Below the pieces are notes generated by a model that was not told the origin of the DNA, did not search any database, and saw only the letters and a program-made list of their open reading frames with translations. A stretch of 26,333 bases of DNA from an uncultured Candidatus Bathyarchaeia archaeon (lineage in GTDB: Archaea; Thermoproteota; Bathyarchaeia; 40CM-2-53-6), in NCBI GenBank assembly GCA_964484575.1, contig CAZAGP010000279.1, positions 1-26,333 on the forward strand. The letters are read 5' to 3'. Position numbers and translations under genes: made by a program. The stretch's first letter is position 1, and each line of letters starts with the position of its first letter. Below are positions 1-10,663 of this stretch, one piece after another.

Positions 1-113
1 TCCAATTGGTCACGAAGAACTTCGAGAAGCGTGTAAGCCGGTGGACATTTCACTTTAATCGATTGCCCGTTTAGCTGGAAACGTATGTCGTGCTCCACCC
101 GCACTGGACTCAC
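1..113 (-). CDS. 5' fragment of a (2Fe-2S)-binding small subunit, xanthine dehydrogenase / CoxS-CutS family; runs off the left edge
   Basis: Manual translation from GTG at 113: MSPVRVEHDIRFQLNGQSIKVKCPPAYTLLEVLRDQL, open to base 1. Fits the usual CoxS-type N-terminus (I.F.LNG...V.P...LL..LR..L), which is normally followed by LTGxKxGC. The cysteines lie outside the window. Confidence 0.7.
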   Translation of the reverse strand, partial: MSPVRVEHDIRFQLNGQSIKVKCPPAYTLLEVLRDQL

Positions 114-264
114 TTCCGTATTCTAGACCTAAGGATACGCAAATATGTGCCTCTTAACCGTTGACTGAATTCGATCAATCTCCGTCCGGGGATAAACTGA
201 ACTGACGTAACTTCGTTAATCTATTTCGAAAGGCTCTTTGCCATCGTCACATTCTGCTTATGTC

Positions 265-1293
265 ATGTCGCGTGTAGCTCTTTATCTACAGGATAAGCAC
301 CAAGTTCGTGAAGAGCTTGAGTTTGTCCAATATGCTGAGAAGAAGGGTTTCGAGGCAATTTGGCACGCCGAATCACGATTAGCACGAGACGCTATCACTC
401 CCCTAGCTGCAATGGCTGTGGTCACAGAAAGGATCAAACTGGGAACGGGTGTGATCAACAATTGGACAAGAAACGTTGGTCTATGCGCTGCCACTTTTCT
501 CACATTAGACGAGCTCTCCGGCGGCAGGGCTCTTTTAGGCTTAGGAGCCTGGTGGGACCCGCTTGCTTGGAAGGTTGGGATAGAGCGAAAGAAACCGATC
601 AGAGCCATGCGTGAGTACTGTACTGTCCTTCAACGTCTTTTCAGAATGGAAAATGTGAGCTTCGATGGTGAGTTCGTACGAGTGCGTGACATTCGACTCG
701 ACGTCGTATATGGGGATCCGCAATCTCCGCGGAAAATTCCAATTTACATCGGAGCCACCGGATGGGATATGATCGAACTTACTGGCGAGATTGCGGACGG
801 CCTCCTTCTAAATTACCTTGTATCGCCAGGGTACAATGAGAGAGCGCTGGACCACCTGAAAGCGGGTGCTATGAAAGGAGATCGAAATTGGCAAGAGATA
901 GATCGTCCACAACTCATCGTCTGTTCTCTCGACGAGGACGCAGACAAAGCATTAGATGACGCACGACCACTTGTTGCGCAATATCTTGGCCAGCAACCTC
1001 ATATAGCGAAAGCTAGTGGAGTCAAGGAGAGTTTGATCGAAGAGGTTAAATCTGCTCTGGGTGGTTGGCCTGCAAAGCCGGGTGGATTAAAGGAAGCTCA
1101 ACTTCTCATCGATGACAACCTGGTTAGACTCATAACTGCCAGTGGCACTGCAGATGATTGCCTGAAGAAAGTGGAGGAGTACAAGAATACTGGATGCACG
1201 TGCCCCATTCTGTATCCGCTGGGAGAAGACGTCCGGGCGATGATTGACGTATTCCAAGTTCAACATCAGCAACCTGGTCCGTTGGTTGCTTAA
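265..1293 (+). CDS. LLM-class (luciferase-like) oxidoreductase, Mer-like, probably F420-dependent
   Basis: [56 protein letters not shown] motifs. ATG at 265 preferred over TTG at 238. Confidence 0.85.
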
Positions 1294-2732: not shown

Positions 2733-2753
2733 TATTTATTAATCAATCATGAA

Positions 2754-2769
2754 TATTGGGTGTCCAAGT
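2754..2769. promoter_or_regulatory. Imperfect palindromic operator copy 3 (TATTGGG-TG-TCCAAGT)
   Basis: Shares an identical 12-mer (TATTGGGTGTCC) with copy 2; lies between the TATA stretch and the likely start at 2776/2779. Confidence 0.55.
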
Positions 2770-2775
2770 TTAAGA

Positions 2776-3375
2776 TTGGTGAAAATCTTGCCTGAAGGGG
2801 ATGAACTAGATCTACGGCGAGGCGACTGGCAGGTACTCGACGCGTTTCATGATGCCGAATCGAGTCTTGCATTTCAAGGCCTCAAACGCCGGCTGGGAAT
2901 GCACCAAGAAACCCTGTCCCGTGCCCTCCAACGTTTAGCGGATGACAACCTGGTCGAACGTACCGAGGATGGGTATCGGCTTACTCAGCATGGTTCAGAG
3001 ATCACTCACATACCGGCACGGGGACACTCTACGAAAGGCACTAGTCTCCTTGAGACATATCTTCCGTCAGATGTGCCAGCAACCGATGTGATTTCGAGAT
3101 TGAAATATTCTTGGTTCAGCAGACTTCGCTGGCTGGGTTATTCGAACAATGAGAATGAAACGTTACTCACCTGGGTTACAGATGACGGTAACACTCAAGT
3201 GCGAGCCCGATTCAAGAACAATCATCTGTCGATTGAAATCGACACTGAAGATGGAGAAAACTCCAACATCGCAATCAAATCGGCTCATGAATTAGCGGCT
3301 CGCATAATTCGTGAGTATCAAAATGTACAGAATACTCGAACAGCACAAACGGTACACACGACGCAGAGCTCCTGA
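2776..3375 (+). CDS. Winged-helix DNA-binding protein with an uncharacterised C-terminal domain
   Basis: FQGLKRRLGMHQETLSRALQRL....LVER..DGYRLT is a wHTH. TTG 2776 or GTG 2779 preferred because the ATG 2749 extension contains the operator repeat. Confidence 0.75.
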   Translation: MVKILPEGDELDLRRGDWQVLDAFHDAESSLAFQGLKRRLGMHQETLSRALQRLADDNLVERTEDGYRLTQHGSEITHIPARGHSTKGTSLLETYLPSDVPATDVISRLKYSWFSRLRWLGYSNNENETLLTWVTDDGNTQVRARFKNNHLSIEIDTEDGENSNIAIKSAHELAARIIREYQNVQNTRTAQTVHTTQSS

Positions 3376-3413
3376 TAGATTAGTCGCATGTGATTCAGCT
3401 AATTCTAATGAAG

Positions 3414-3473: not shown

Positions 3474-5270
3474 TTACTGGATGATTGGATCGACGAACTT
3501 GAAATTGACCGTGTCCAGCATCCCCTTATCTGTTATTCGCAATTTTGGAATGACTGAGAGCGTTGTCATAGCTAAATTCATGTACGGGGATGGAAGCGTG
3601 CAGCCCAACGTGACCCAAGCGTCTCTTAATAGGTCCACTTCCTGAACCACTGATTCGACAGGTTGGTCGGACATAATCCCTGCGATTGGTAGCGGAACGG
3701 TAGCAAGCACCTTTCCTTTGCGAGCAACTACCATCCCTCCTCCGCTCTTAATGACCTCGTTAGCAGCGATTAGCATCTCTTCTTCAGATGCACCCGCGAC
3801 GACCAGATTGTGACTATCATGTGCCACGGTTGAAGCTACTGCTCCTTCTCTTATCCCAAATCCTTTCACAAACCCGATCGATTTGTTGCCTGTGCCCTTG
3901 TGTCTTTCGAATACTGCAATCTTCAACACATCTTCGTCCACGTTAGCGTATACTCGACCATCTTTCGATGGGGCTTCCGCTTCCAAATTATCTGTGTAGG
4001 CGCTGGCCGGGATTATTCCGATAGCTCTCACCCTCACCGTTCGCTGGGATGTTTTCGATTTTATCGTGAAGTCATCCAGGGTGGGAGATGACTTGAGCAC
4101 GATCGACTTGCGAGTGAATTCGGGAAGTTTCGGAGAAGTAATGTTTGCTATCAGCTTCCCACCCTGCGAAACCACCTGTCCATTAGCAATCACCGTTCCA
4201 ATCCTCACGGTTGACAACCTGTCGAGAATTATCATGTCAGCAAGCCTAGCAGGTGCTATGCTTCCTAGATTTCTGGAGCATTCATAGTGTTCTGCTACGT
4301 TAATCGTTGCCATCTGGATCGCTCGAATCGGGTCAACGCCCTCTTCGATTGCTCGTCGCACAACGTGATCGACATGTCCATCAGTGATAATCGAATGTGG
4401 TTCCCTGTCATCCGTGACTAGGCAAATGTGCCTCGAGTCTAACTTTTCTTCTGTAATCGCGCGCACTGTATCAGCAACATCGCGCCACGCGGAGCTTTCT
4501 CGTAGCATAACGTACATTCCTAACCGAAGTTTTTGCACTGCTTCAATCTTCTTAGTAGATTCATGGCATGAAGTTATCCCGCTAGCAACGTACGCAACCA
4601 GGTCTCGGTCCAGAAGATTGACCGCGTGTCCTTCCACCACGCGGCCAGCTTTCAGAGTTGCGGCAAGTTCCCCGTGAACTTGTGGATCACTTGAGATTAC
4701 GCCAGGATAATTCATTATCTCACCGAGCGCGACCACTCCATTCCATTTTAACGCCTCTTCAACTTCCGCGGTGGTTATGCTTCCGCCTGTTGTCTCAAAA
4801 CCTGGAGCGGCAGGAACACATGAAGGGAAGGTTATTAGGACCTTCAACGGCAAATTTCGCGATTCATCTAGGAAGAATCGCACGCCACTCAAGCCTAACA
4901 CGTTGGCGATCTCATGGGGGTCTGCGAAAACGGTAGTTGAACCATGAGGGAGAACTGCTCTAGCTAATTCTGTGGCCGTAACCATCGCGCTTTCAATGTG
5001 CATGTGCCCGTCAATGAATCCTGGAACAAGATATCTACCCGCCGCCTCGATCACTTGTGTCGTCGGCCCGATAGTATGCTCAGCATGCCCAATGAAAGCG
5101 ATTCGATCCTTCTTTACTGCTACATCTTGCTCTTCAATGATTTCTCCAGAATTTACGTTAACTAATGAAACGTTCCGCACAACCAGGTCAGCCTTCAATT
5201 TGCCCGTCGCGGTGTCCACAAGCGTGCGGGTCATCTCGTGCAGGCGCGTTCTACCCTCAAACTCGAACAA
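3474..5270 (-). CDS. ade: Adenine deaminase
   Basis: 598 aa; GFIDGHMHIES (HxH), DPHEIANV, EGHA, CHE, VTDD and the C-terminal GA.ASTVAHDSHN...LPLPIAGIMS domain typical of AdeC. Confidence 0.92.
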   Translation of the reverse strand: MFEFEGRTRLHEMTRTLVDTATGKLKADLVVRNVSLVNVNSGEIIEEQDVAVKKDRIAFIGHAEHTIGPTTQVIEAAGRYLVPGFIDGHMHIESAMVTATELARAVLPHGSTTVFADPHEIANVLGLSGVRFFLDESRNLPLKVLITFPSCVPAAPGFETTGGSITTAEVEEALKWNGVVALGEIMNYPGVISSDPQVHGELAATLKAGRVVEGHAVNLLDRDLVAYVASGITSCHESTKKIEAVQKLRLGMYVMLRESSAWRDVADTVRAITEEKLDSRHICLVTDDREPHSIITDGHVDHVVRRAIEEGVDPIRAIQMATINVAEHYECSRNLGSIAPARLADMIILDRLSTVRIGTVIANGQVVSQGGKLIANITSPKLPEFTRKSIVLKSSPTLDDFTIKSKTSQRTVRVRAIGIIPASAYTDNLEAEAPSKDGRVYANVDEDVLKIAVFERHKGTGNKSIGFVKGFGIREGAVASTVAHDSHNLVVAGASEEEMLIAANEVIKSGGGMVVARKGKVLATVPLPIAGIMSDQPVESVVQEVDLLRDAWVTLGCTLPSPYMNLAMTTLSVIPKLRITDKGMLDTVNFKFVDPIIQ

Positions 5271-5445: not shown

Positions 5446-6837
5446 GTGAGCTCATTACTGGTGACCGGTGGAACTCTAATTACGATGGATACTCACAGGC
5501 GCATAATCACCGATGGCGGTATCCTGATTGAAGGCTCCCGAATATCGAAAATAGGCAAATCATCTGAAGTGAAACGTGAGTCGAGCGCGGAATTTGAAAT
5601 CGATGCCAAAGGAATGGTAATTCTGCCAGGGCTCATTGATGTTCACGTGCACCTCGCGCAAGCCATGTTGCGAGGATGCGCAGATGATACTTCACTGATC
5701 GATTGGCTCCAGAAGTTCGTTTGGCCTCTGCAAGGGAATTACGATGAACATGATGGCAAGGCAAGCGCCGAACTCTGCATGCTTGAAATGATCAAGTCTG
5801 GTACGACCACCTTCTTGGAAACGCATGTGCACAGACGCTACGGGTTCGACGGAATTGCGAAAAGCGTAGAGAGCAGTGGAATGCGCGGCATCCTAGCTAA
5901 GACAGTGATGAGCCTTCCTAGCTATGGTAGCCAGCAGAACATCATGCACCCAGGCATGATCGAAGACGGTGAGACATGCCTAAGGGAGGTTGAGGAGTAC
6001 TTCAAGAGATGGAATGGGAAGGCTGATGGTCGAATCAAAGTCTGGTACGGAGCAAGGTCACTGGGAGGGTGTACACCTGAACTCTATAGGAAGATAGCAG
6101 AGGGCGCAAAACGATTAGGAACAGGAGTAACGATGCATTTGGACGAAGTGCCCCAGGATGCAGAATATACTCGAAGAGAATTCAATAAATTGCCCGCGGA
6201 ATTTATGGACGAAGTGGGACTTACTGGTCCAAACGTTGTGTATGCTCATGGAGTTTGGTTGACTGAACCGGAATGGAAGATTCTGGCTGAGAAAGGAGCA
6301 ACAGTCGCTCACTGTCCGTCTTCTAACATGAAATTGGCTTCTGGAATCGCAAAGGTTCCTGAGATGATTAAGAGTGGGGTTAACGTGGGATTAGGATGTG
6401 ACGGGGGCCCTAGCAATAATTCATACGACATGATTCGTGAGATGAAGTTGGCCTCACTCGCTCAGAAAGCAAGATTACTCAACCCGCTTGTAATGGACGC
6501 TGAGACAGTTCTCGAACTAGCTACCATCAACGGAGCTAGGGCATTAGGGGTGGATAAGGAAATCGGCTCGTTAGAAGTTGCAAAGAAAGCCGATCTAACG
6601 CTCGTATCGTTACGGCAACCCCACCTAGTTCCAGCACACAATCCGGTCTCCCATTTGGTGTACGCCGCATCAGGATCAGACGTTGACACGGTCATAATTG
6701 ATGGACGAATTATAATGAAGAATCGTCAAGTGCTGACTCTCGATGAAGAGAAGATTATTCAAGAAGCTAACGAGCGTGGAACAAGGCTCTTGGCGAGAGC
6801 TGGAGTCACGATTAAACCCAAATGGGGATACGTTTGA
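5446..6837 (+). CDS. Metal-dependent amidohydrolase (MtaD / SsnA / guanine-deaminase-like superfamily)
   Basis: LPGLIDVHVH (HxH), MHLDE (HxxE), AHGVW, HCPSSNMKL, GLGCDG, GKKAD-like KKADL. Substrate cannot be assigned from motifs. Confidence 0.85.
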   Translation: MSSLLVTGGTLITMDTHRRIITDGGILIEGSRISKIGKSSEVKRESSAEFEIDAKGMVILPGLIDVHVHLAQAMLRGCADDTSLIDWLQKFVWPLQGNYDEHDGKASAELCMLEMIKSGTTTFLETHVHRRYGFDGIAKSVESSGMRGILAKTVMSLPSYGSQQNIMHPGMIEDGETCLREVEEYFKRWNGKADGRIKVWYGARSLGGCTPELYRKIAEGAKRLGTGVTMHLDEVPQDAEYTRREFNKLPAEFMDEVGLTGPNVVYAHGVWLTEPEWKILAEKGATVAHCPSSNMKLASGIAKVPEMIKSGVNVGLGCDGGPSNNSYDMIREMKLASLAQKARLLNPLVMDAETVLELATINGARALGVDKEIGSLEVAKKADLTLVSLRQPHLVPAHNPVSHLVYAASGSDVDTVIIDGRIIMKNRQVLTLDEEKIIQEANERGTRLLARAGVTIKPKWGYV

Positions 6838-6927: not shown

Positions 6928-7953
6928 CTAAGTGCGCTTTCCACTCATTGTAAGCGCTAGTACCGCCATCTTCGTGTACATTCCGTTCTCCGCCTGAGGG
7001 TAGATGACCGAGTGTCGTCCATCCAGCACTTCATCTGTAGCCTCTTCACCTCGCAGAACTGGCAGCACGTGAGTAACTATCGCTCGCTTACTCATCTTAT
7101 CAAGTAAATCCTGCGTGAGAGTCCAGTTTCGGTACTTCTCATGGATCTCCAGCTCTCGGTCCTTGCCGAACCTGCTTGCTCCTATTGAAAGAAGTTCATT
7201 CGTAGCCCAGTTTCTAGGAAAAACCGCGTTGGCTCCATCCAAAGCGGATTCGAGATCGTTAGTCACTGTGAATTCTGCTCCCTGGGCCAGGGCATTCGAC
7301 CTTGATGCATCAATTATTTTGGGGTCTAATTCGAATCCAGGGGGATGAGCCAGTACCACGTCCATACCGAAACGTGACATTATCAGTGCCTCTTCGTTAA
7401 TGCTGCAACGACCTCGAAAGCTCTTCGCGTATCCCCACATGATCACGTATTTCTTCCCTTTCACCTTGCTAAGGGCTTCTTCAGTCGTCATTAAATCAGC
7501 AAGGCCCTGTGTAGGGTGATACGTGCAGCATGCCATGTTAATTACCGGAATCTCAGCATGTTTCGCATACTCTCGGATGGTGGAGACTCCTACTCCAGAT
7601 ACGTAGTCGATTGCGGAGTCTAGGATTCGTACGCCCAAACCATGCCCATACTTCTCGTACATCTTAGCCACATCTCTGGCAGCCTCCCCAGAACCTAAAC
7701 GCGTAGTGGAAACGTCAATATACTGAGCATGTCCACCAAGATACGTCATTCCCGCTTCAAACGCTGCCCGTGTCCTAGTCGACGGAGCGTAGAAGAGCAT
7801 GAAGAATGTTTTAGCATTGAGTACGGGGAGGACTCTGCCGCGGTGATACTGTCGTTTCATCTCCTTGGCAGTCTTTAGGGTTGCTACAAGCTCATCAATC
7901 GACCAGTCTTGTGTGGTTATTAGGTCGCGCCCGCCCAAATCTACTTTAACCAA
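6928..7953 (-). CDS. Carbamoyltransferase-fold protein 1 (OTCase/ATCase superfamily, YgeW-like, non-canonical)
   Basis: STRT, HPTQ and HVLP motifs. TTG at 7953 follows GAAGGTGGG (SD-like), giving 341 aa; the track's extension to 8286 overlaps carbamate kinase. Confidence 0.88.
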   Translation of the reverse strand: MVKVDLGGRDLITTQDWSIDELVATLKTAKEMKRQYHRGRVLPVLNAKTFFMLFYAPSTRTRAAFEAGMTYLGGHAQYIDVSTTRLGSGEAARDVAKMYEKYGHGLGVRILDSAIDYVSGVGVSTIREYAKHAEIPVINMACCTYHPTQGLADLMTTEEALSKVKGKKYVIMWGYAKSFRGRCSINEEALIMSRFGMDVVLAHPPGFELDPKIIDASRSNALAQGAEFTVTNDLESALDGANAVFPRNWATNELLSIGASRFGKDRELEIHEKYRNWTLTQDLLDKMSKRAIVTHVLPVLRGEEATDEVLDGRHSVIYPQAENGMYTKMAVLALTMSGKRT

Positions 7954-8082: not shown

Positions 8083-9045
8083 GTGAGAGTATTGCCCGAT
8101 TCGTTGATCGTCATAGCACTTGGCGGGAACGCCCTTCTGCAAAGAGGACAGAAAGGAACCGTTGAGGAACAATATGAAAACATGAGGAGGACCGTTCCGA
8201 AGATAGCTGACCTGATCCAGAGAGGTTACAAAGTGGTTCTGACGCATGGGAACGGGCCGCAGGTTGGAGCAACCCTCCTTCGTCACGAGGCTGCTAAAGC
8301 TATCGTACCGCCATTCCCGCTAGATGCCTGCGGAGCAGAAACGCAAGGCTTCATCGGGTATATGATTCAGCAAGTATTGAGGAATGAGCTTAAGGCACGA
8401 GAAATTGAAAAATTCGTCGTAACGGTAGTCACACGCGTAATTGTCGATAAACACGATTTGGCCTTTCAGAATCCGACGAAGCCAATCGGACCATTCTATT
8501 CAAAGGATGAAGCGACTAAATTGAAGGAACAGAAACCCGATCTGGTGATTAAGGAAGATGCGGGTCGAGGCTACAGGCGAGTCGTACCTTCTCCTGATCC
8601 CAAGATAATTGCAGAGCGGACAGCTATACGTGCCCTCGTCGACGCCGGATTCGTTGTTATTGCTTGCGGAGGAGGAGGCATTCCCATAATCGAAGAGGAA
8701 ACCCAGACAGTGGGAGTGGAGGCAGTGATTGACAAGGACCTCGCGGCTCAGCGCTTAAGTACCCTGATCGGGGCACAAATCCTGATAATCCTCACCGACG
8801 TGGACGGGGCGTACATGAACTACGGAACCTCAAAACAAGAAATAATCAGACAAATCACTTCTGGAAAATTGAAAAACCATCTGAAAGAAGGACAGTTCAA
8901 GGAAGGCAGTATGGCACCAAAGGTTGAAGCTGCAATTCGATTCGTGGAGAGCGGTGGCGAACGCGCAGTTATTGCTGATCTCGGAAGTCTAGTTGAAGCT
9001 CTCGAAGGAAAAGCAGGGACGCAGATCACAGTGCCAAAAGCTTAA
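8083..9045 (+). CDS. arcC: Carbamate kinase
   Basis: ALGGNAL, THGNGPQVG, KPIGPF, EDAGRGYRRVVPSP, GGGGIP, EAVIDKD, GSMAPKVEAA. Alternative start TTG 8092. Confidence 0.95.
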   Translation: MRVLPDSLIVIALGGNALLQRGQKGTVEEQYENMRRTVPKIADLIQRGYKVVLTHGNGPQVGATLLRHEAAKAIVPPFPLDACGAETQGFIGYMIQQVLRNELKAREIEKFVVTVVTRVIVDKHDLAFQNPTKPIGPFYSKDEATKLKEQKPDLVIKEDAGRGYRRVVPSPDPKIIAERTAIRALVDAGFVVIACGGGGIPIIEEETQTVGVEAVIDKDLAAQRLSTLIGAQILIILTDVDGAYMNYGTSKQEIIRQITSGKLKNHLKEGQFKEGSMAPKVEAAIRFVESGGERAVIADLGSLVEALEGKAGTQITVPKA

Positions 9046-9083
9046 TTTAATCACAACTAATTCAGCGAAGGGTGGTAATTGAA

Positions 9084-10154
9084 ATGCCGTCATTCGTTGG
9101 TTTCTGGAAAGGCAAAGACTTTCTTGATACGAATGATTTTTCTCAGGAAGAGATCAAGAAGGTTCTTGATGCAGCCGACATTCTGAGAAAGAATTTCAGA
9201 TCACGTAAGAAACACCAGTATCTTTCCGGTCAAACACTCTTCATGCTTTTCTATAATCGATCACTCAGAACCAGAAACTCTTTCGAAGGAGGAATGTACC
9301 AGTTAGGAGGACATGCACACTTCCTCAGCCCTCAAGACGTCTATACTCCTGCCCTACCCGAAGACATGGTCGCCTATCAGACTGAAGCGATTTCGGACGT
9401 AGCGAGAGTCCTAAGTCGATACGGTGACGCAATAGCGATCAGAATCTATGGTGATGCAGCGAAATGGGTGATCGGACGAGGTCACAAGGTAGTTCAGGAA
9501 TTCGCAATAAACGCTACAATTCCTGTGCTTAACATGGAAGACGACATGTACCATCCGTTCCAGGCATTAGCCGACGTCCAGGCAATGCGGGCTGCTATTC
9601 CTAAACTCGCTGGGAAGAAACTTGTAGTTTCCTATGCTTACTCTGGCGGACTGAAGCCATTAGCTGTACCGCAAAGCGAAGTTCTCATCGGAACTCAAAT
9701 GGGAATGGAAGTTGTGCTCGCCCACCCACCCGGATTTGAACTAGAAGAGGTAGTGCTGAAAGCTGCCAAAGCGAACGCGGACAGATATGGTGGAGATTTC
9801 AAAATCGTAACTGACATGAAAGAAGCATTTGACGGAGCGGACGTGGTGTATCCTAAAGCGTGGTCACCAAAGAACTACTTTCCACCGCACAGAGCCGAAC
9901 TAGACAAGCAAGGCGCGATGTCGCACCAAGACAAGTACAAGAGCTGGATTTGCACTCAAGAGATGATGGATCTCACAAACAAGGGAAAATACATGCATTG
10001 CGGACCCGCAGACAGAGGCCAAGAAGTTACAGATGACGTGATCGACAACATGAACTATTCACTGTACTTCGAAGAAGCCGAAGATCGTCTCCACGTGCAG
10101 AAGGCGATTATGGCGATGGTGATGGGCGGTCGTCCCTCTCGTCGTCGGAAATGA
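9084..10154 (+). CDS. Carbamoyltransferase-fold protein 2 (AOTCase/SOTCase/YgeW-like, non-canonical)
   Basis: SLRT, HPFQ, YPKAW, MHCGP and EAEDRLH motifs. ATG 9084 follows AGGGTGG (SD-like). Confidence 0.88.
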   Translation: MPSFVGFWKGKDFLDTNDFSQEEIKKVLDAADILRKNFRSRKKHQYLSGQTLFMLFYNRSLRTRNSFEGGMYQLGGHAHFLSPQDVYTPALPEDMVAYQTEAISDVARVLSRYGDAIAIRIYGDAAKWVIGRGHKVVQEFAINATIPVLNMEDDMYHPFQALADVQAMRAAIPKLAGKKLVVSYAYSGGLKPLAVPQSEVLIGTQMGMEVVLAHPPGFELEEVVLKAAKANADRYGGDFKIVTDMKEAFDGADVVYPKAWSPKNYFPPHRAELDKQGAMSHQDKYKSWICTQEMMDLTNKGKYMHCGPADRGQEVTDDVIDNMNYSLYFEEAEDRLHVQKAIMAMVMGGRPSRRRK

Positions 10155-10663
10155 AGACGAGTCGAACGCCGGACCAAACCCCGATTGTTCTAGCAAACTG
10201 GGGGAGGCGAATTATCGCTTGGTTCGTAGACTATGTCATAATCAGTATATTATTGGGATATTTCCAGCTTGAGACAGTAGAGACCAGAATGTTTCCGGCT
10301 GCTTTGCTACCGAAGGCTCCAGGAACGGATATTTCGGTTTGGTCGCCCTTATCGATTCTAATCTTCTTTCTGTACTTCACATTCTCAGAATGGTACCTTG
10401 GAAGGTCAATAGGGCAACTACTATTGAATGTTCGAATTGTTGACGTCCAAGGGAAAGCCCTCAGTTTACGCGCATCGGCAATTCTAGGCATAGGTAAATC
10501 GAACCCACTTTTCCTGTTATTTGATTGCCTCATTGGTCGAGCTTACAGACCAAGTCGCGAACTGCGGCAAAGATTAACGAATAGAATTTCCAATACAATT
10601 GTCATATTCATCGGAGAGTCAGCCAGAACGATTGAGCAAGACGGTTACATGAAGGAACCCTGA
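10151..10663 (+). CDS. RDD-family membrane protein
   Basis: LANWGRRIIAWFVD, hydrophobic segments, GRSIGQLLL.VRIVD and RQRL...ISNTIV. ATGA overlap with the upstream stop. Confidence 0.8.
   Translation: MKTSRTPDQTPIVLANWGRRIIAWFVDYVIISILLGYFQLETVETRMFPAALLPKAPGTDISVWSPLSILIFFLYFTFSEWYLGRSIGQLLLNVRIVDVQGKALSLRASAILGIGKSNPLFLLFDCLIGRAYRPSRELRQRLTNRISNTIVIFIGESARTIEQDGYMKEP

What the first reader, a model, noticed from the sequence alone, without database searches (positions are those of the whole stretch)
9084..10154. Carbamoyltransferase 2: AOTCase/SOTCase-like N-domain, YgeW-like C-domain and an HCGP motif
Seen: SLRT instead of STRT, a long insertion in the 80s loop (VYTPALPEDMVAYQTE), AYSGGLKPLAVPQS, YPKAW, MHCGP and EAEDR; it lies 38 nt after carbamate kinase on the same strand. 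Known: SxRT variants with extended 80s loops typify N-acetyl- and N-succinyl-ornithine transcarbamylases, and KPLxVPQ / YPKSW typify YgeW. Inference: it is catabolic because it is coupled to ArcC, and acts on a different ureide from paralog 1. The pair may work in sequence on a di-ureido substrate or form a hetero-oligomer.
Basis: partly seen in the sequence, partly recalled or inferred. Interest (0 to 1): 0.68.

Follow-up and report, generated by a model that had tools for sequence, protein, structure and literature searches.

The report
Archaeal purine-ureide carbamoyltransferase, YgeW-like
This peat archaeon gene most likely encodes an enzyme that uses phosphate to split a urea-like group off a purine breakdown intermediate; with its neighbouring paralogue it could give two energy-rich carbamoyl phosphates per purine, where E. 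coli gets one.

Summary
Window 9084-10154 (+) encodes an intact 356-aa carbamoyltransferase (CT2) 38 nt after carbamate kinase. It has SLRT, HPFQ, HCGP, long AOTCase-like 80s and 120s loops, and YgeW-like C-domain motifs (KPLAVPQ, YPKAW, ADRGQEV).

It is not an N-acetylornithine carbamoyltransferase. The three defining residues are changed, it scores below the NCBIfam cut-off, no arg genes are nearby, and the genome has a canonical OTCase.

In trees CT2 falls in a clade that is sister to the YgeW clade and that also contains the true AOTCases. Relatives in archaea and bacteria sit in reductive urate (2,8-dioxopurine) clusters with SsnA, a hydantoinase, XDH, YgfK or an F420 reductase, and carbamate kinase.

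None of 27 loci with two carbamoyltransferases has the ureidohydrolase YgeY, whereas 19 of 47 single-enzyme loci do.

Best reading (about 0.6): CT2 is the YgeW equivalent and CT1 replaces YgeY, so both ureido groups of 2,3-diureidopropionate are phosphorolysed.

Caveats: there is no biochemistry. These genomes lack CarB, so the kinase may also work anabolically. The fold could not be modelled.

Earlier notes in this scan reached the same reading on other genomes. Verdict: a new variant of a known pathway.

The parts
9084..10154 (+). CT2: 356-aa carbamoyltransferase with knotted-type sequence features; sister lineage of AOTCases with a YgeW-like second-substrate site
9070..9075 (+). GGGTGG Shine-Dalgarno-like element 8 nt upstream of the ATG at 9084; supports this start over the GTG at 9072
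   Evidence: homologues start M-x-SFVG
9261..9272 (+). SLRT (res 60-63), carbamoyl-phosphate binding SxRT motif
   Evidence: motif definition PMC4581275
9339..9386 (+). Extended 80s loop (res 86-101). Tyr87 lies at or next to AOTCase Trp77; Thr100 aligns with AOTCase Glu92
9438..9485 (+). Extended 120s loop (res 119-134), a signature of knotted transcarbamylases
   Evidence: PMC4581275
9552..9563 (+). HPFQ (res 157-160), HPxQ carbamoyl-phosphate motif; Glu152 just upstream equals AOTCase Glu144
9654..9674 (+). Proline-rich loop KPLAVPQ (res 191-197), shared with the YgeW clade. Lys191 equals YgeW Lys203; Pro192 sits where AOTCase has Asn185
9849..9863 (+). YPKAW (res 256-260); Lys258 equals AOTCase Lys252 and YgeW Lys270
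9996..10028 (+). HCGP followed by ADRGQEV (res 305-315). HxLP motif with Leu changed to Gly; Asp310 and Glu314 equal YgeW Asp334 and Glu344, where AOTCase has Arg298 and Lys302
8083..9045 (+). Carbamate kinase (arcC, 430 bits, above cut-off), the only one found in the assembly; start codon uncertain within 8083-8107
6928..7953 (-). CT1: divergently transcribed paralogue (35% identical to CT2), clade A, with FPRNW and HVLP; proposed partner acting on the second ureido group
10151..10663 (+). RDD-family membrane protein; its ATG overlaps the CT2 stop (ATGA), so it is probably co-translated. Conserved downstream of CT2 only in close relatives
5446..6837 (+). TRZ/ATZ-type amidohydrolase, closer to GuaD/DadD-type deaminases than to SsnA; probably a purine deaminase feeding the pathway
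3474..5270 (-). Adenine deaminase (561 bits, above cut-off)
238..1293 (+). F420-type LLM oxidoreductase, 59-62% identical to LLM genes beside SsnA and XDH in Actinomycetota; candidate dioxopurine reductase
   Evidence: PMC12507026
3..113 (-). N-terminal fragment of a 2Fe-2S XDH-family small subunit that runs off the contig start

Best explanation
CT2 is a catabolic carbamoyltransferase of an archaeal version of the reductive urate (2,8-dioxopurine) pathway. It is the functional counterpart of E. coli YgeW.

Proposed route, inferred from gene content: purines are deaminated and passed through XDH, then an F420-dependent LLM reductase, an SsnA-type ring opener and a hydantoinase-type amidohydrolase, giving 2,3-diureidopropionate. 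CT2 then uses phosphate to remove one ureido group as carbamoyl phosphate. The divergently encoded paralogue CT1 does the same to the remaining mono-ureido product, a step that YgeY performs by hydrolysis in E. coli. Carbamate kinase, encoded between the two genes, converts carbamoyl phosphate plus ADP to ATP. In these CarB-less genomes the carbamoyl phosphate could also feed ATCase and OTCase.

Shown here: the sequence features, the phylogeny, the gene neighbourhoods and co-occurrence, and the presence of CT2 sequence in RNA libraries. Inferred: the substrate, the direction of the reaction, the order of the two enzymes, and which ureido group each one attacks.
For: 1. Active-site pattern. CT2 keeps the carbamoyl-phosphate motifs. 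It shares Lys191, Lys258, Asp310 and Glu314 with the proposed second-substrate residues of YgeW (K203, K270, D334, E344); AOTCases differ at three of these four positions (all but Lys258).

2. Phylogeny. In the IQ-TREE analysis, CT2-type clade B (support 100/98) is sister to YgeW clade C (100/99), with the join supported at 95/89. CT1-type clade A (98/94) lies outside both.

3. Gene context. Of 74 non-arginine loci holding relatives, 41 have carbamate kinase and 31 have SsnA, XDH, HyuA, YgfK or LLM markers.
- In genome G064 the order is SsnA (408 bits), CT2, CT1, hydantoinase, carbamate kinase, a DHO_dh/PreA-like plus GltD-like reductase pair, and a ThrC-like gene.
- G000 itself has an SsnA-like gene (425 bits), a cyclic amidohydrolase and MocA on contig C232, and an XDH on C309.

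4. Complementarity with YgeY. None of 27 two-transcarbamylase loci has YgeY, against 19 of 47 single-transcarbamylase loci.

5. Pairing. Eighteen loci carry both an A-type and a B-type gene. In about nine they are adjacent on one strand, and in five only the carbamate kinase gene lies between them. The pair occurs in Bathyarchaeia, Desulfurococcales, Asgard archaea, Thermotogota, Bipolaricaulota, Chloroflexota and Cloacimonadota.

6. Genome-level co-occurrence among 201 genomes of the class.
- CT2 is in 9 genomes, CT1 in 9 and a strong SsnA match (at least 376 bits) in 9; all three occur together in 6.
- All 5 other genomes with an A+B pair that were checked have a strong SsnA match.

7. Published biochemistry. 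YgeW phosphorolyses 2,3-diureidopropionate and with YqeA yields ATP; YgeY hydrolyses the second ureido group. A transcarbamylase replacing an M20 amidohydrolase in purine catabolism has a precedent in UGTCase (PMC4016543).

8. Expression. Contigs at least 99% identical from three peat metatranscriptome runs lie on CT2.
Against: - No enzyme assay exists for any clade A or clade B protein.
- CT2's 80s loop is AOTCase-like, not YgeW-like, and position 152 is Glu where the YgeW clade has Gln. The substrate could therefore differ from YgeW's.
- The amidohydrolase next to CT2 in the window is deaminase-like, not SsnA. In G000 the SsnA and hydantoinase genes lie on another contig.
- Carbamate kinase is widespread in the class (90 of 201 genomes). 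All CT1/CT2 genomes lack CarB, so the kinase may run anabolically.
- No YgeX-type diaminopropionate ammonia-lyase was found, so the end of the pathway is unexplained.
- Exclusivity with YgeY is not strict at genome level. Two of five A+B genomes hold a YgeY-like gene (38-41% identity) elsewhere, although without purine genes nearby.
- Related genomes are not independent, so the Fisher test overstates the case.
- The RNA-library contigs do not cover the kinase, and DNA carry-over cannot be excluded.
Confidence: 0.6

Rival explanations
1. CT2 is catabolic but acts on another ureide. Candidates are allantoate or ureidoglycine (also a di-ureido route), N-carbamoyl-beta-alanine from reductive pyrimidine breakdown, or an N-carbamoyl amino acid released by a hydantoinase. 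In this reading CT1 and CT2 would serve parallel pathways rather than successive steps.
For: - In L015 the CT2 orthologue lies near an Asp/Glu/hydantoin racemase and a cyclic amidohydrolase that scores about equally as allantoinase, hydantoinase and dihydroorotase, all below cut-off.
- G064 has a PreA/PreT-like reductase pair that could equally reduce pyrimidines.
- A transcarbamylase that phosphorolyses allantoate is documented (PMC4016543).
- CT2 differs from YgeW in the 80s loop and at residue 152.
Against: - Association with SsnA, XDH and the YgfK or LLM reductases, which mark the dioxopurine route, recurs across phyla.
- Pyrimidine breakdown gives only one ureido group and does not explain the complementarity between YgeY and a second transcarbamylase.
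- C. difficile uses a PF01180 reductase in its urate cluster, so the G064 reductase does not argue for pyrimidines.
Confidence: 0.2
2. CT2 is anabolic. It uses carbamoyl phosphate made by the adjacent kinase, which in these CarB-less genomes would be the only synthase, to carbamoylate an N-acylated diamino acid. It would then be an AOTCase- or SOTCase-like step of arginine synthesis, or a step towards an unknown carbamoylated product.
For: - The best NCBIfam hit is AOTCase at 271 bits, just below the 288 cut-off.
- The best PDB hit is X. campestris AOTCase.
- True AOTCases branch beside archaeal CT2 within clade B.
- At the three discriminating positions CT2 has Thr, Pro and Glu, close to the SOTCase pattern, and its SLRT motif equals that of SOTCase.
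- CarB was not found in any CT2-bearing genome.
Against: - AOTCase Glu92, Asn185, Lys302 and Arg298 are not kept.
- All 10 loci with at least two arg genes hold clade B2 enzymes only, and none of them has carbamate kinase.
- No arg gene lies near CT2.
- The genome has a canonical OTCase scoring 401 bits.
- ArgG was found in only 2 of 6 CT2-bearing genomes.
- B. fragilis SOTCase is a weak match at 81 bits.
Confidence: 0.08
3. CT1 and CT2 form a hetero-trimer, so that one particle carries both specificities. This does not exclude the best explanation.
For: Transcarbamylase active sites are built across subunit interfaces (PMC4581275). The two genes are often adjacent or flank the kinase gene.
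Against: All characterised members of the family are homotrimers or multiples of them. In G111, G128, G152 and G155, CT1 (with its own kinase gene) and CT2 lie on different contigs. No modelling was possible.
Confidence: 0.1

Closest known systems
E. coli YgeW (YTCase), the carbamoyltransferase of the reductive urate / 2,8-dioxopurine pathway
   Same: - Sister clade in the tree.
- Shared KPLxVPQ, YPKxW and HCxP-ADRGxEV motifs, with the equivalents of K203, K270, D334 and E344.
- Carbamate kinase next door.
- Relatives sit in clusters with SsnA, HyuA, XDH and a reductase.
   Different: - Only 32% identical; 161-171 bits against YgeW model cut-offs of 453-500.
- Long AOTCase-like 80s loop instead of the short Gln98 loop.
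- Glu152 instead of Gln160.
- Lacks YgeW's extra N- and C-terminal helices and the 240s-loop insertion.
- Paired with a second transcarbamylase instead of YgeY.
N-acetyl-L-ornithine carbamoyltransferase (AOTCase, X. campestris ArgF'; PDB 3KZC and others)
   Same: - Closest solved structure (about 196-198 bits) and closest curated model.
- Same clade B.
- Extended 80s and 120s loops, Glu144 and Lys252 equivalents, proline-rich loop.
   Different: - Glu92 is Thr, Asn185 is Pro, Lys302 is Glu, Arg298 is Asp, and Trp77 is Tyr or Thr.
- No arginine-gene context; carbamate kinase is adjacent instead.
- AOTCases form a separate long-stemmed subclade, all in arg clusters.
Ureidoglycine carbamoyltransferase (UGTCase, Rubrobacter xylanophilus Rxyl_2847)
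   Same: A transcarbamylase that replaces an M20-family amidohydrolase in purine catabolism. It phosphorolyses a di-ureido acid (allantoate) and is followed by carbamate kinase.
   Different: UGTCase belongs to the unknotted ATCase branch and serves the oxidative allantoin route. CT2 belongs to the knotted group and is associated with the reductive route.
Catabolic ornithine and putrescine carbamoyltransferases (ArcB, PtcA) with ArcC
   Same: The same logic of ureide phosphorolysis coupled to ATP synthesis by carbamate kinase.
   Different: CT2 lacks DxxxSMG and the PTCase motifs. No arginine deiminase was found by Pfam/NCBIfam annotation of the window's ORFs, and no agmatine deiminase appeared in it. 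The genome-wide ADI-family match is weak and lies on another contig.

Membership tests
Aspartate/ornithine transcarbamylase superfamily | SxRT, HPxQ and HxLP carbamoyl-phosphate motifs, with both Pfam domains | tested here: met
   PF02729 at 134 bits and PF00185 at 109 bits. SLRT and HPFQ are present. HxLP reads HCGP, a Leu-to-Gly change conserved in 118 of 120 close relatives. Motif definition from PMC4581275.
Knotted transcarbamylases (AOTCase, SOTCase, YTCase group) | Proline-rich loop and extended 120s loop (sequence signatures) | tested here: met
   KPLAVPQ loop and a 120s loop as long as in AOTCase. CT2 falls in the 57-row knotted group with 100/99 support.
Knotted transcarbamylases (AOTCase, SOTCase, YTCase group) | 3-1 trefoil knot in the C-terminal domain | not testable with these tools
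N-acetylornithine carbamoyltransferase (AOTCase) | Glu92, Asn185 and Lys302 (X. campestris numbering) | tested here: not met
   These positions are Thr100, Pro192 and Glu314 in CT2. Rule from PMC4581275.
N-acetylornithine carbamoyltransferase (AOTCase) | Score above the curated NCBIfam equivalog cut-off (NF003384, 288 bits) | tested here: not met
   271.1 bits.
N-acetylornithine carbamoyltransferase (AOTCase) | Location in an arginine biosynthesis gene cluster | tested here: not met
   No arg genes in the window. Arg context occurs only around clade B2.
N-succinylornithine carbamoyltransferase (SOTCase) | A/S/P/V/Q, Pro and V/I/E at the three discriminating positions; His176, Arg178 and Arg278 anchoring the succinyl group; arg-cluster context | tested here: inconclusive
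   Pro and Glu fit the rule and Thr is close to it. The three succinyl anchors were not mapped. B. fragilis SOTCase is a weak match at 81 bits, and the arg-cluster context is absent.
YgeW / YTCase | Score above the curated cut-offs (NF005538 at 453 bits; TIGR03316 at 500 bits) | tested here: not met
   170.7 and 160.6 bits.
YgeW / YTCase | Short OTCase-like 80s loop with Gln98; extra N- and C-terminal helices; 240s loop with two extra helices | tested here: not met
   CT2 has the long 80s loop and lacks the YgeW-specific insertions and termini. Features from PMC4581275.
YgeW / YTCase | Proposed second-substrate residues K203, K270, D334, E344, Q160 | tested here: inconclusive
   Four of the five are kept (K191, K258, D310, E314); Q160 is Glu152. 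This supports 'works like YgeW' but not membership.
YgeW / YTCase | Carbamate kinase adjacent, and purine (SsnA, HyuA, XDH) cluster context | tested here: met
   The kinase gene ends 38 nt upstream. For the context of orthologues.
Ornithine carbamoyltransferase | DxxxSMG ornithine loop | tested here: not met
   The loop is replaced by YPKAWS. TIGR00658 scores 225 bits, below its cut-off of 281.

The most novel reading that the evidence does not exclude
A module of two transcarbamylases plus carbamate kinase (CT2 type then CT1 type) replaces YgeW plus YgeY. Both ureido groups of the C3 purine remnant would then be phosphorolysed, giving two carbamoyl phosphates (up to 2 ATP) per purine. In Bathyarchaeia that have lost CarAB, this module and its kinase would also supply carbamoyl phosphate for pyrimidine and arginine synthesis. 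The biosynthetic AOTCases of Xanthomonadales and Acidobacteriota would have arisen from within this catabolic clade.
Probability: 0.4. Interest if true: 0.75.

Novelty: new variant of a known kind. Interest (0 to 1): 0.6.

Why it matters
The anaerobic urate pathway was solved only in 2025 and only in gut bacteria. The order of its two ureido cleavages is still disputed (PMC12990295).

If this reading is right, three things follow.
- A natural variant that splits both ureido groups with phosphate would double substrate-level phosphorylation from purines. That matters for energy-limited peat and subsurface archaea.
- It would assign a function to a large set of proteins now annotated as ornithine or N-acetylornithine carbamoyltransferase in Bathyarchaeia, Desulfurococcales, Asgard archaea, Chloroflexota, Thermotogota and others.
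- It would provide two enzymes whose specificities could settle which mono-ureido intermediate is used.

The work also suggests where AOTCases came from. It warns against inferring "catabolic" from an adjacent arcC in lineages that lack CarAB.

Tried and rejected
- **Structure prediction.** The ESM Atlas had no model and returned only generic OTCase/AOTCase cluster names. The knot and the active-site geometry are therefore untested.
- **Rfam.** The whole window gave no hit, so there is no riboswitch or other known RNA near the operon.
- **Joining contigs.** I tested whether contig C130, which ends in an XDH 2Fe-2S gene next to CT3, joins the window start. The two fragments cover the same part of the protein, so they are paralogues and not one gene.
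- **The neighbouring amidohydrolase as SsnA.** I first read the gene at 5446-6837 as the SsnA equivalent. This is rejected: it is closer to GuaD/DadD-type deaminases, and the real SsnA-like gene is on C232.
- **PALP genes as YgeX.** I first read the two PALP genes next to the L015 orthologue as YgeX. This is rejected: they score as CysK-like and ThrC-like.
- **Strict genome-level exclusivity of YgeY and the A+B pair.** Not upheld. Two of five genomes have a YgeY-like gene elsewhere, outside any purine context.
- **Literature.** Searches for an archaeal or two-transcarbamylase variant, or for Bathyarchaeia with carbamate kinase, found nothing relevant.
- **Unknown 317-aa family.** The protein next to CT3 matches no Pfam, NCBIfam or PDB entry.
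Full report
**1. The observation**

Window 9084-10154 (+) translates without a stop into a 356-aa protein (P0001). It carries both transcarbamylase domains (PF02729 at 134 bits, PF00185 at 109 bits).
- The carbamate kinase ORF (arcC, TIGR00746 at 430 bits, above cut-off) ends at 9045, 38 nt before the ATG.
- GGGTGG lies 8 nt upstream of that ATG.
- The stop codon overlaps the ATG of an RDD-family membrane protein gene (ATGA).
- The 120 closest database relatives (74-92% identical, named Bathyarchaeia, "Nitrososphaerota" or Nezhaarchaeales where a name exists) keep SLRTR (120), YPKAW (120), KPLAVPQ (117) and HCGP (118).

These features are therefore conserved. The source is a peat metagenome. 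The assembly is a 1.72-Mb, 80%-complete genome of Bathyarchaeia type.

**2. What family it belongs to**

The best curated model is AOTCase, at 271 bits against a cut-off of 288. YgeW models give 161-171 bits against cut-offs of 453-500. The best solved structure is X. campestris AOTCase at about 196-198 bits.

The published discriminators of AOTCase are Glu92, Asn185 and Lys302 (PMC4581275). In CT2 these are Thr100, Pro192 and Glu314. Arg298 is Asp310, and Trp77 aligns with Tyr87 or Thr88.

The genome holds five transcarbamylases:
- a canonical OTCase (401 bits);
- a canonical ATCase (385 bits);
- CT1 (window 6928-7953, minus strand);
- CT2;
- CT3 (contig C130).

The 80s and 120s loops are AOTCase-like. 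The proline-rich loop (KPLxVPQ), YPKxW and the stretch after HxLP (ADRGxEV) are those of the YgeW clade. Four of the residues proposed to bind YgeW's second substrate are kept as K191, K258, D310 and E314 (YgeW K203, K270, D334, E344).

**3. Phylogeny**

I built a FastTree of 125 transcarbamylases taken from the fetched loci and a careful IQ-TREE of 63 of them. Both give the same groups.
- Clade A: the CT1 type, including CT3.
- Clade C: the YgeW type, including E. coli YgeW.
- Clade B: the CT2 type.
- Clade D: a very divergent group.

B and C are sisters (95/89) and A lies outside them. Within B, the true AOTCases form a long-stemmed subclade (stem length 0.94). Ten of its 12 rows lie in loci with at least two arginine-biosynthesis genes, one more lies beside argB, and one sits on a short contig without them. 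This subclade branches beside the archaeal CT2 sequences (95/80). That explains the near-threshold AOTCase score. It also suggests that AOTCases derive from this otherwise kinase-linked clade; this depends on the outgroup rooting.

**4. Gene context**

The window holds, in order:
- an XDH 2Fe-2S fragment;
- an F420-type LLM oxidoreductase;
- adenine deaminase;
- a GuaD/DadD-like amidohydrolase;
- CT1 (minus strand);
- carbamate kinase;
- CT2;
- the RDD protein gene.

Elsewhere, the same genome has these pieces:
- An SsnA-like gene (425 bits; SsnA is its best model), divergent from a cyclic amidohydrolase and followed by MocA, on contig C232.
- A three-subunit XDH on contig C309.
- CT3 with a second LLM paralogue, a second XDH 2Fe-2S gene and a partial amidohydrolase on contig C130.

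This gene set matches the reductive urate (2,8-dioxopurine) pathway published in 2025. In that pathway an XDH-type enzyme acts first, then a reductase (YgfK, UacX, or an F420 LLM in Chloroflexota), SsnA and HyuA, giving 2,3-diureidopropionate. YgeW plus phosphate then gives carbamoyl phosphate, which YqeA converts to ATP. YgeY hydrolyses the second ureido group, and YgeX degrades diaminopropionate.

A scan of one genome per species returned 80 loci with relatives of CT2. I annotated them by BLAST against window proteins and the E. coli ygeW-xdhD and arg genes.
- Ten loci have arginine-biosynthesis genes. All ten hold clade B2 enzymes, and none has carbamate kinase.
- Of the other 74 loci (70 from this scan plus four archaeal loci fetched earlier), 41 have carbamate kinase and 31 have SsnA, XDH, HyuA, YgfK or LLM genes.
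- The LLM genes beside SsnA and XDH in Actinomycetota are 59-62% identical to the window's LLM.

The most compact archaeal example is G064, from another family of the same class. Its gene order is SsnA (408 bits), CT2 type, CT1 type, hydantoinase type, carbamate kinase, ParB-like, a DHO_dh/PreA-like gene plus a GltD-like gene (the C. difficile-type reductase), and a ThrC-like gene.

**5. The pair**

CT1-type and CT2-type genes co-occur.
- Among 201 genomes of the class, CT2 (at least 55% identity) is in 9 and CT1 (at least 58%) is in 9. Seven genomes have both, and all the exceptions are less than 90% complete.
- A strong SsnA match (at least 376 bits; the next best is 292) is also in 9 genomes. 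Six genomes have all three.
- In the fetched loci, 18 carry both an A-type and a B-type gene. About nine are adjacent on one strand, almost always in the order B then A. In five more, only the kinase gene lies between them.
- The pair is found in Bathyarchaeia, Desulfurococcales, Thor- and Hermodarchaeota, Thermotogota, Bipolaricaulota, Chloroflexota and Cloacimonadota.
- All five such genomes that I tested have a strong SsnA-family gene (305-527 bits).

Most telling is the relation to YgeY. None of the 27 loci with two transcarbamylases (A+B, or C+D) contains YgeY, whereas 19 of the 47 loci with one transcarbamylase do. The Fisher p value is 5e-5, and the difference persists when at least 5 kb of flank is required. 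Related genomes are not independent, so this p value overstates the case. This is the pattern expected if a second transcarbamylase takes over the YgeY step. The precedent is UGTCase, which replaces the M20 allantoate amidohydrolase.

One caveat applies. At whole-genome level, two of five A+B genomes have a YgeY-like gene (38-41% identity) elsewhere, with no purine gene within 10 kb.

**6. Mechanistic reading**

CT2 shares the C-domain site with YgeW and is its sister, so it most likely does the YgeW step. CT1 has Ala for Glu152, Arg for Lys258 (FPRNW) and HVLP, and most likely takes the mono-ureido product.

Which ureido group is attacked first is unknown, even for YgeW. CT2's kinship with AOTCase, which carbamoylates the distal amine of an N-alpha-acylated diamino acid, makes the 3-ureido group a reasonable guess. 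That is inference only.

The Leu-to-Gly change in HCGP is confined to the Bathyarchaeia/Desulfurococcales clade. Its effect was not tested.

**7. What weakens the case**

- No clade A or B enzyme has been assayed.
- Carbamate kinase is common in the class (90 of 201 genomes). CarB is found in 102 of 201 genomes, but in none of the CT1/CT2 genomes, while all 11 genomes of the sister genus have it. The kinase may therefore also make carbamoyl phosphate for ATCase and OTCase, and "next to arcC" does not by itself mean catabolic.
- ArgG was found in only two of six CT2 genomes. This argues against an arginine-synthesis role.
- No YgeX orthologue was found. Instead, ThrC-like and CysK-like PLP enzymes recur in these clusters in archaea and bacteria.
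- An allantoate or pyrimidine ureide cannot be excluded for some loci.

**8. Expression**

Contigs from three peat metatranscriptome runs match CT2 at 99% or better (9105-9469, 9186-9563, 9694-10018, 9828-10037). Others match the wHTH regulator gene (2780-3401), once CT1 and once trxB. None matches the kinase. This is consistent with transcription in situ but does not prove it, because DNA carry-over is possible and the runs were chosen using this region.

**9. Novelty**

The two primary papers and the commentary deal with bacteria only. They treat all PF00185 neighbours as YgeW, and they mention neither archaea nor a second transcarbamylase. Full-text searches found nothing further.

Earlier AI notes in this scan reached the same reading on other genomes (e1-1466016 and e1-1239439). 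These are not independent evidence.

I class CT2 as a new variant of a known pathway enzyme. It works like YgeW, but it is a member of neither the YgeW nor the AOTCase family as these are defined.

Noticed in passing
L015:11066-13409; L047:6012-8401; many bacterial loci (L077, L082, L085, L104-L113, L135): A CysK-like and a ThrC-like (PRK08197-type) PLP enzyme recur in uricolytic clusters of all variants. A YgeX-type diaminopropionate ammonia-lyase was seen in only one locus (L098) and in none of the CT2-bearing archaeal genomes. These enzymes may handle diaminopropionate, by elimination or by beta-replacement to Ser or Cys.
   Followed up: partly
G000 and genomes G197, G111, G128, G134, G152, G155, G161, G064: CarB (carbamoyl-phosphate synthetase large subunit) was not found in any CT1/CT2-bearing genome. 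It is present in 102 of 201 genomes of the class and in all 11 of the sister genus. Across families of the class, carbamate kinase and CarB are largely complementary, which suggests an anabolic role for the kinase in many Bathyarchaeia.
   Followed up: partly
tree (L118, L121, L123, L125-L136): True AOTCases (arg-cluster context; Xanthomonadales and Acidobacteriota) form a long-stemmed subclade nested within the kinase-linked CT2-type clade. This suggests the biosynthetic enzyme evolved from a catabolic ureide transcarbamylase.
   Followed up: partly
L089, L104, L107, L108, L110, L113, L115: A third variant: a very divergent transcarbamylase (clade D, stem length 2.8) sits directly upstream of a YgeW-type gene in Chloroflexota, Actinomycetota and Planctomycetota clusters that lack YgeY. 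It may correspond to the 'pseudo-ATCase' next to ygeW reported for Nocardioides (PMC4016543).
   Followed up: partly
G000 contig C130 (L006:1-6558): A third paralogue, CT3 (clade A, 52% identical to CT1), lies downstream of a second XDH-type 2Fe-2S gene. Nearby are a 317-aa protein of unknown family (four paralogues in the genome; no Pfam, NCBIfam or PDB match), an amino-acid permease, a second F420 LLM (56% identical to the window's) and a partial amidohydrolase.
   Followed up: partly
G000 contig C232 (L141:8863-12329): An SsnA-like gene (425 bits), a divergent cyclic amidohydrolase (hydantoinase, allantoinase or dihydroorotase-like) and MocA (molybdenum cofactor cytidylyltransferase) lie together. 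This mirrors the E. coli ssnA/hyuA/mocA neighbourhood.
   Followed up: yes
window 2749-3375: The wHTH (MarR/HVO_A0261-like) regulator gene between padR and adenine deaminase is covered by contigs at least 99% identical in all three peat metatranscriptome runs, although it lay outside the region used to find those runs.
   Followed up: no
window 3-113 (-): This is the N-terminus of an XDH-family 2Fe-2S small subunit cut by the contig start. It is a paralogue of the gene at the end of contig C130 and not the same gene, so the assembly probably broke at paralogous copies.
   Followed up: yes
L049, L055, L056 (G155, G128, G152): In the sister genus, CT1 has its own carbamate kinase gene and ThrC-like neighbour. 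It sits beside IMP dehydrogenase and a nucleoside-type ABC transporter, while CT2 lies on another contig.
   Followed up: no
L046:10-7731 (G064): The G064 purine cluster is flanked by MtmB-like, corrinoid-protein and URO-D-type methyltransferase genes and by an aldehyde:ferredoxin oxidoreductase with a ferredoxin.
   Followed up: no
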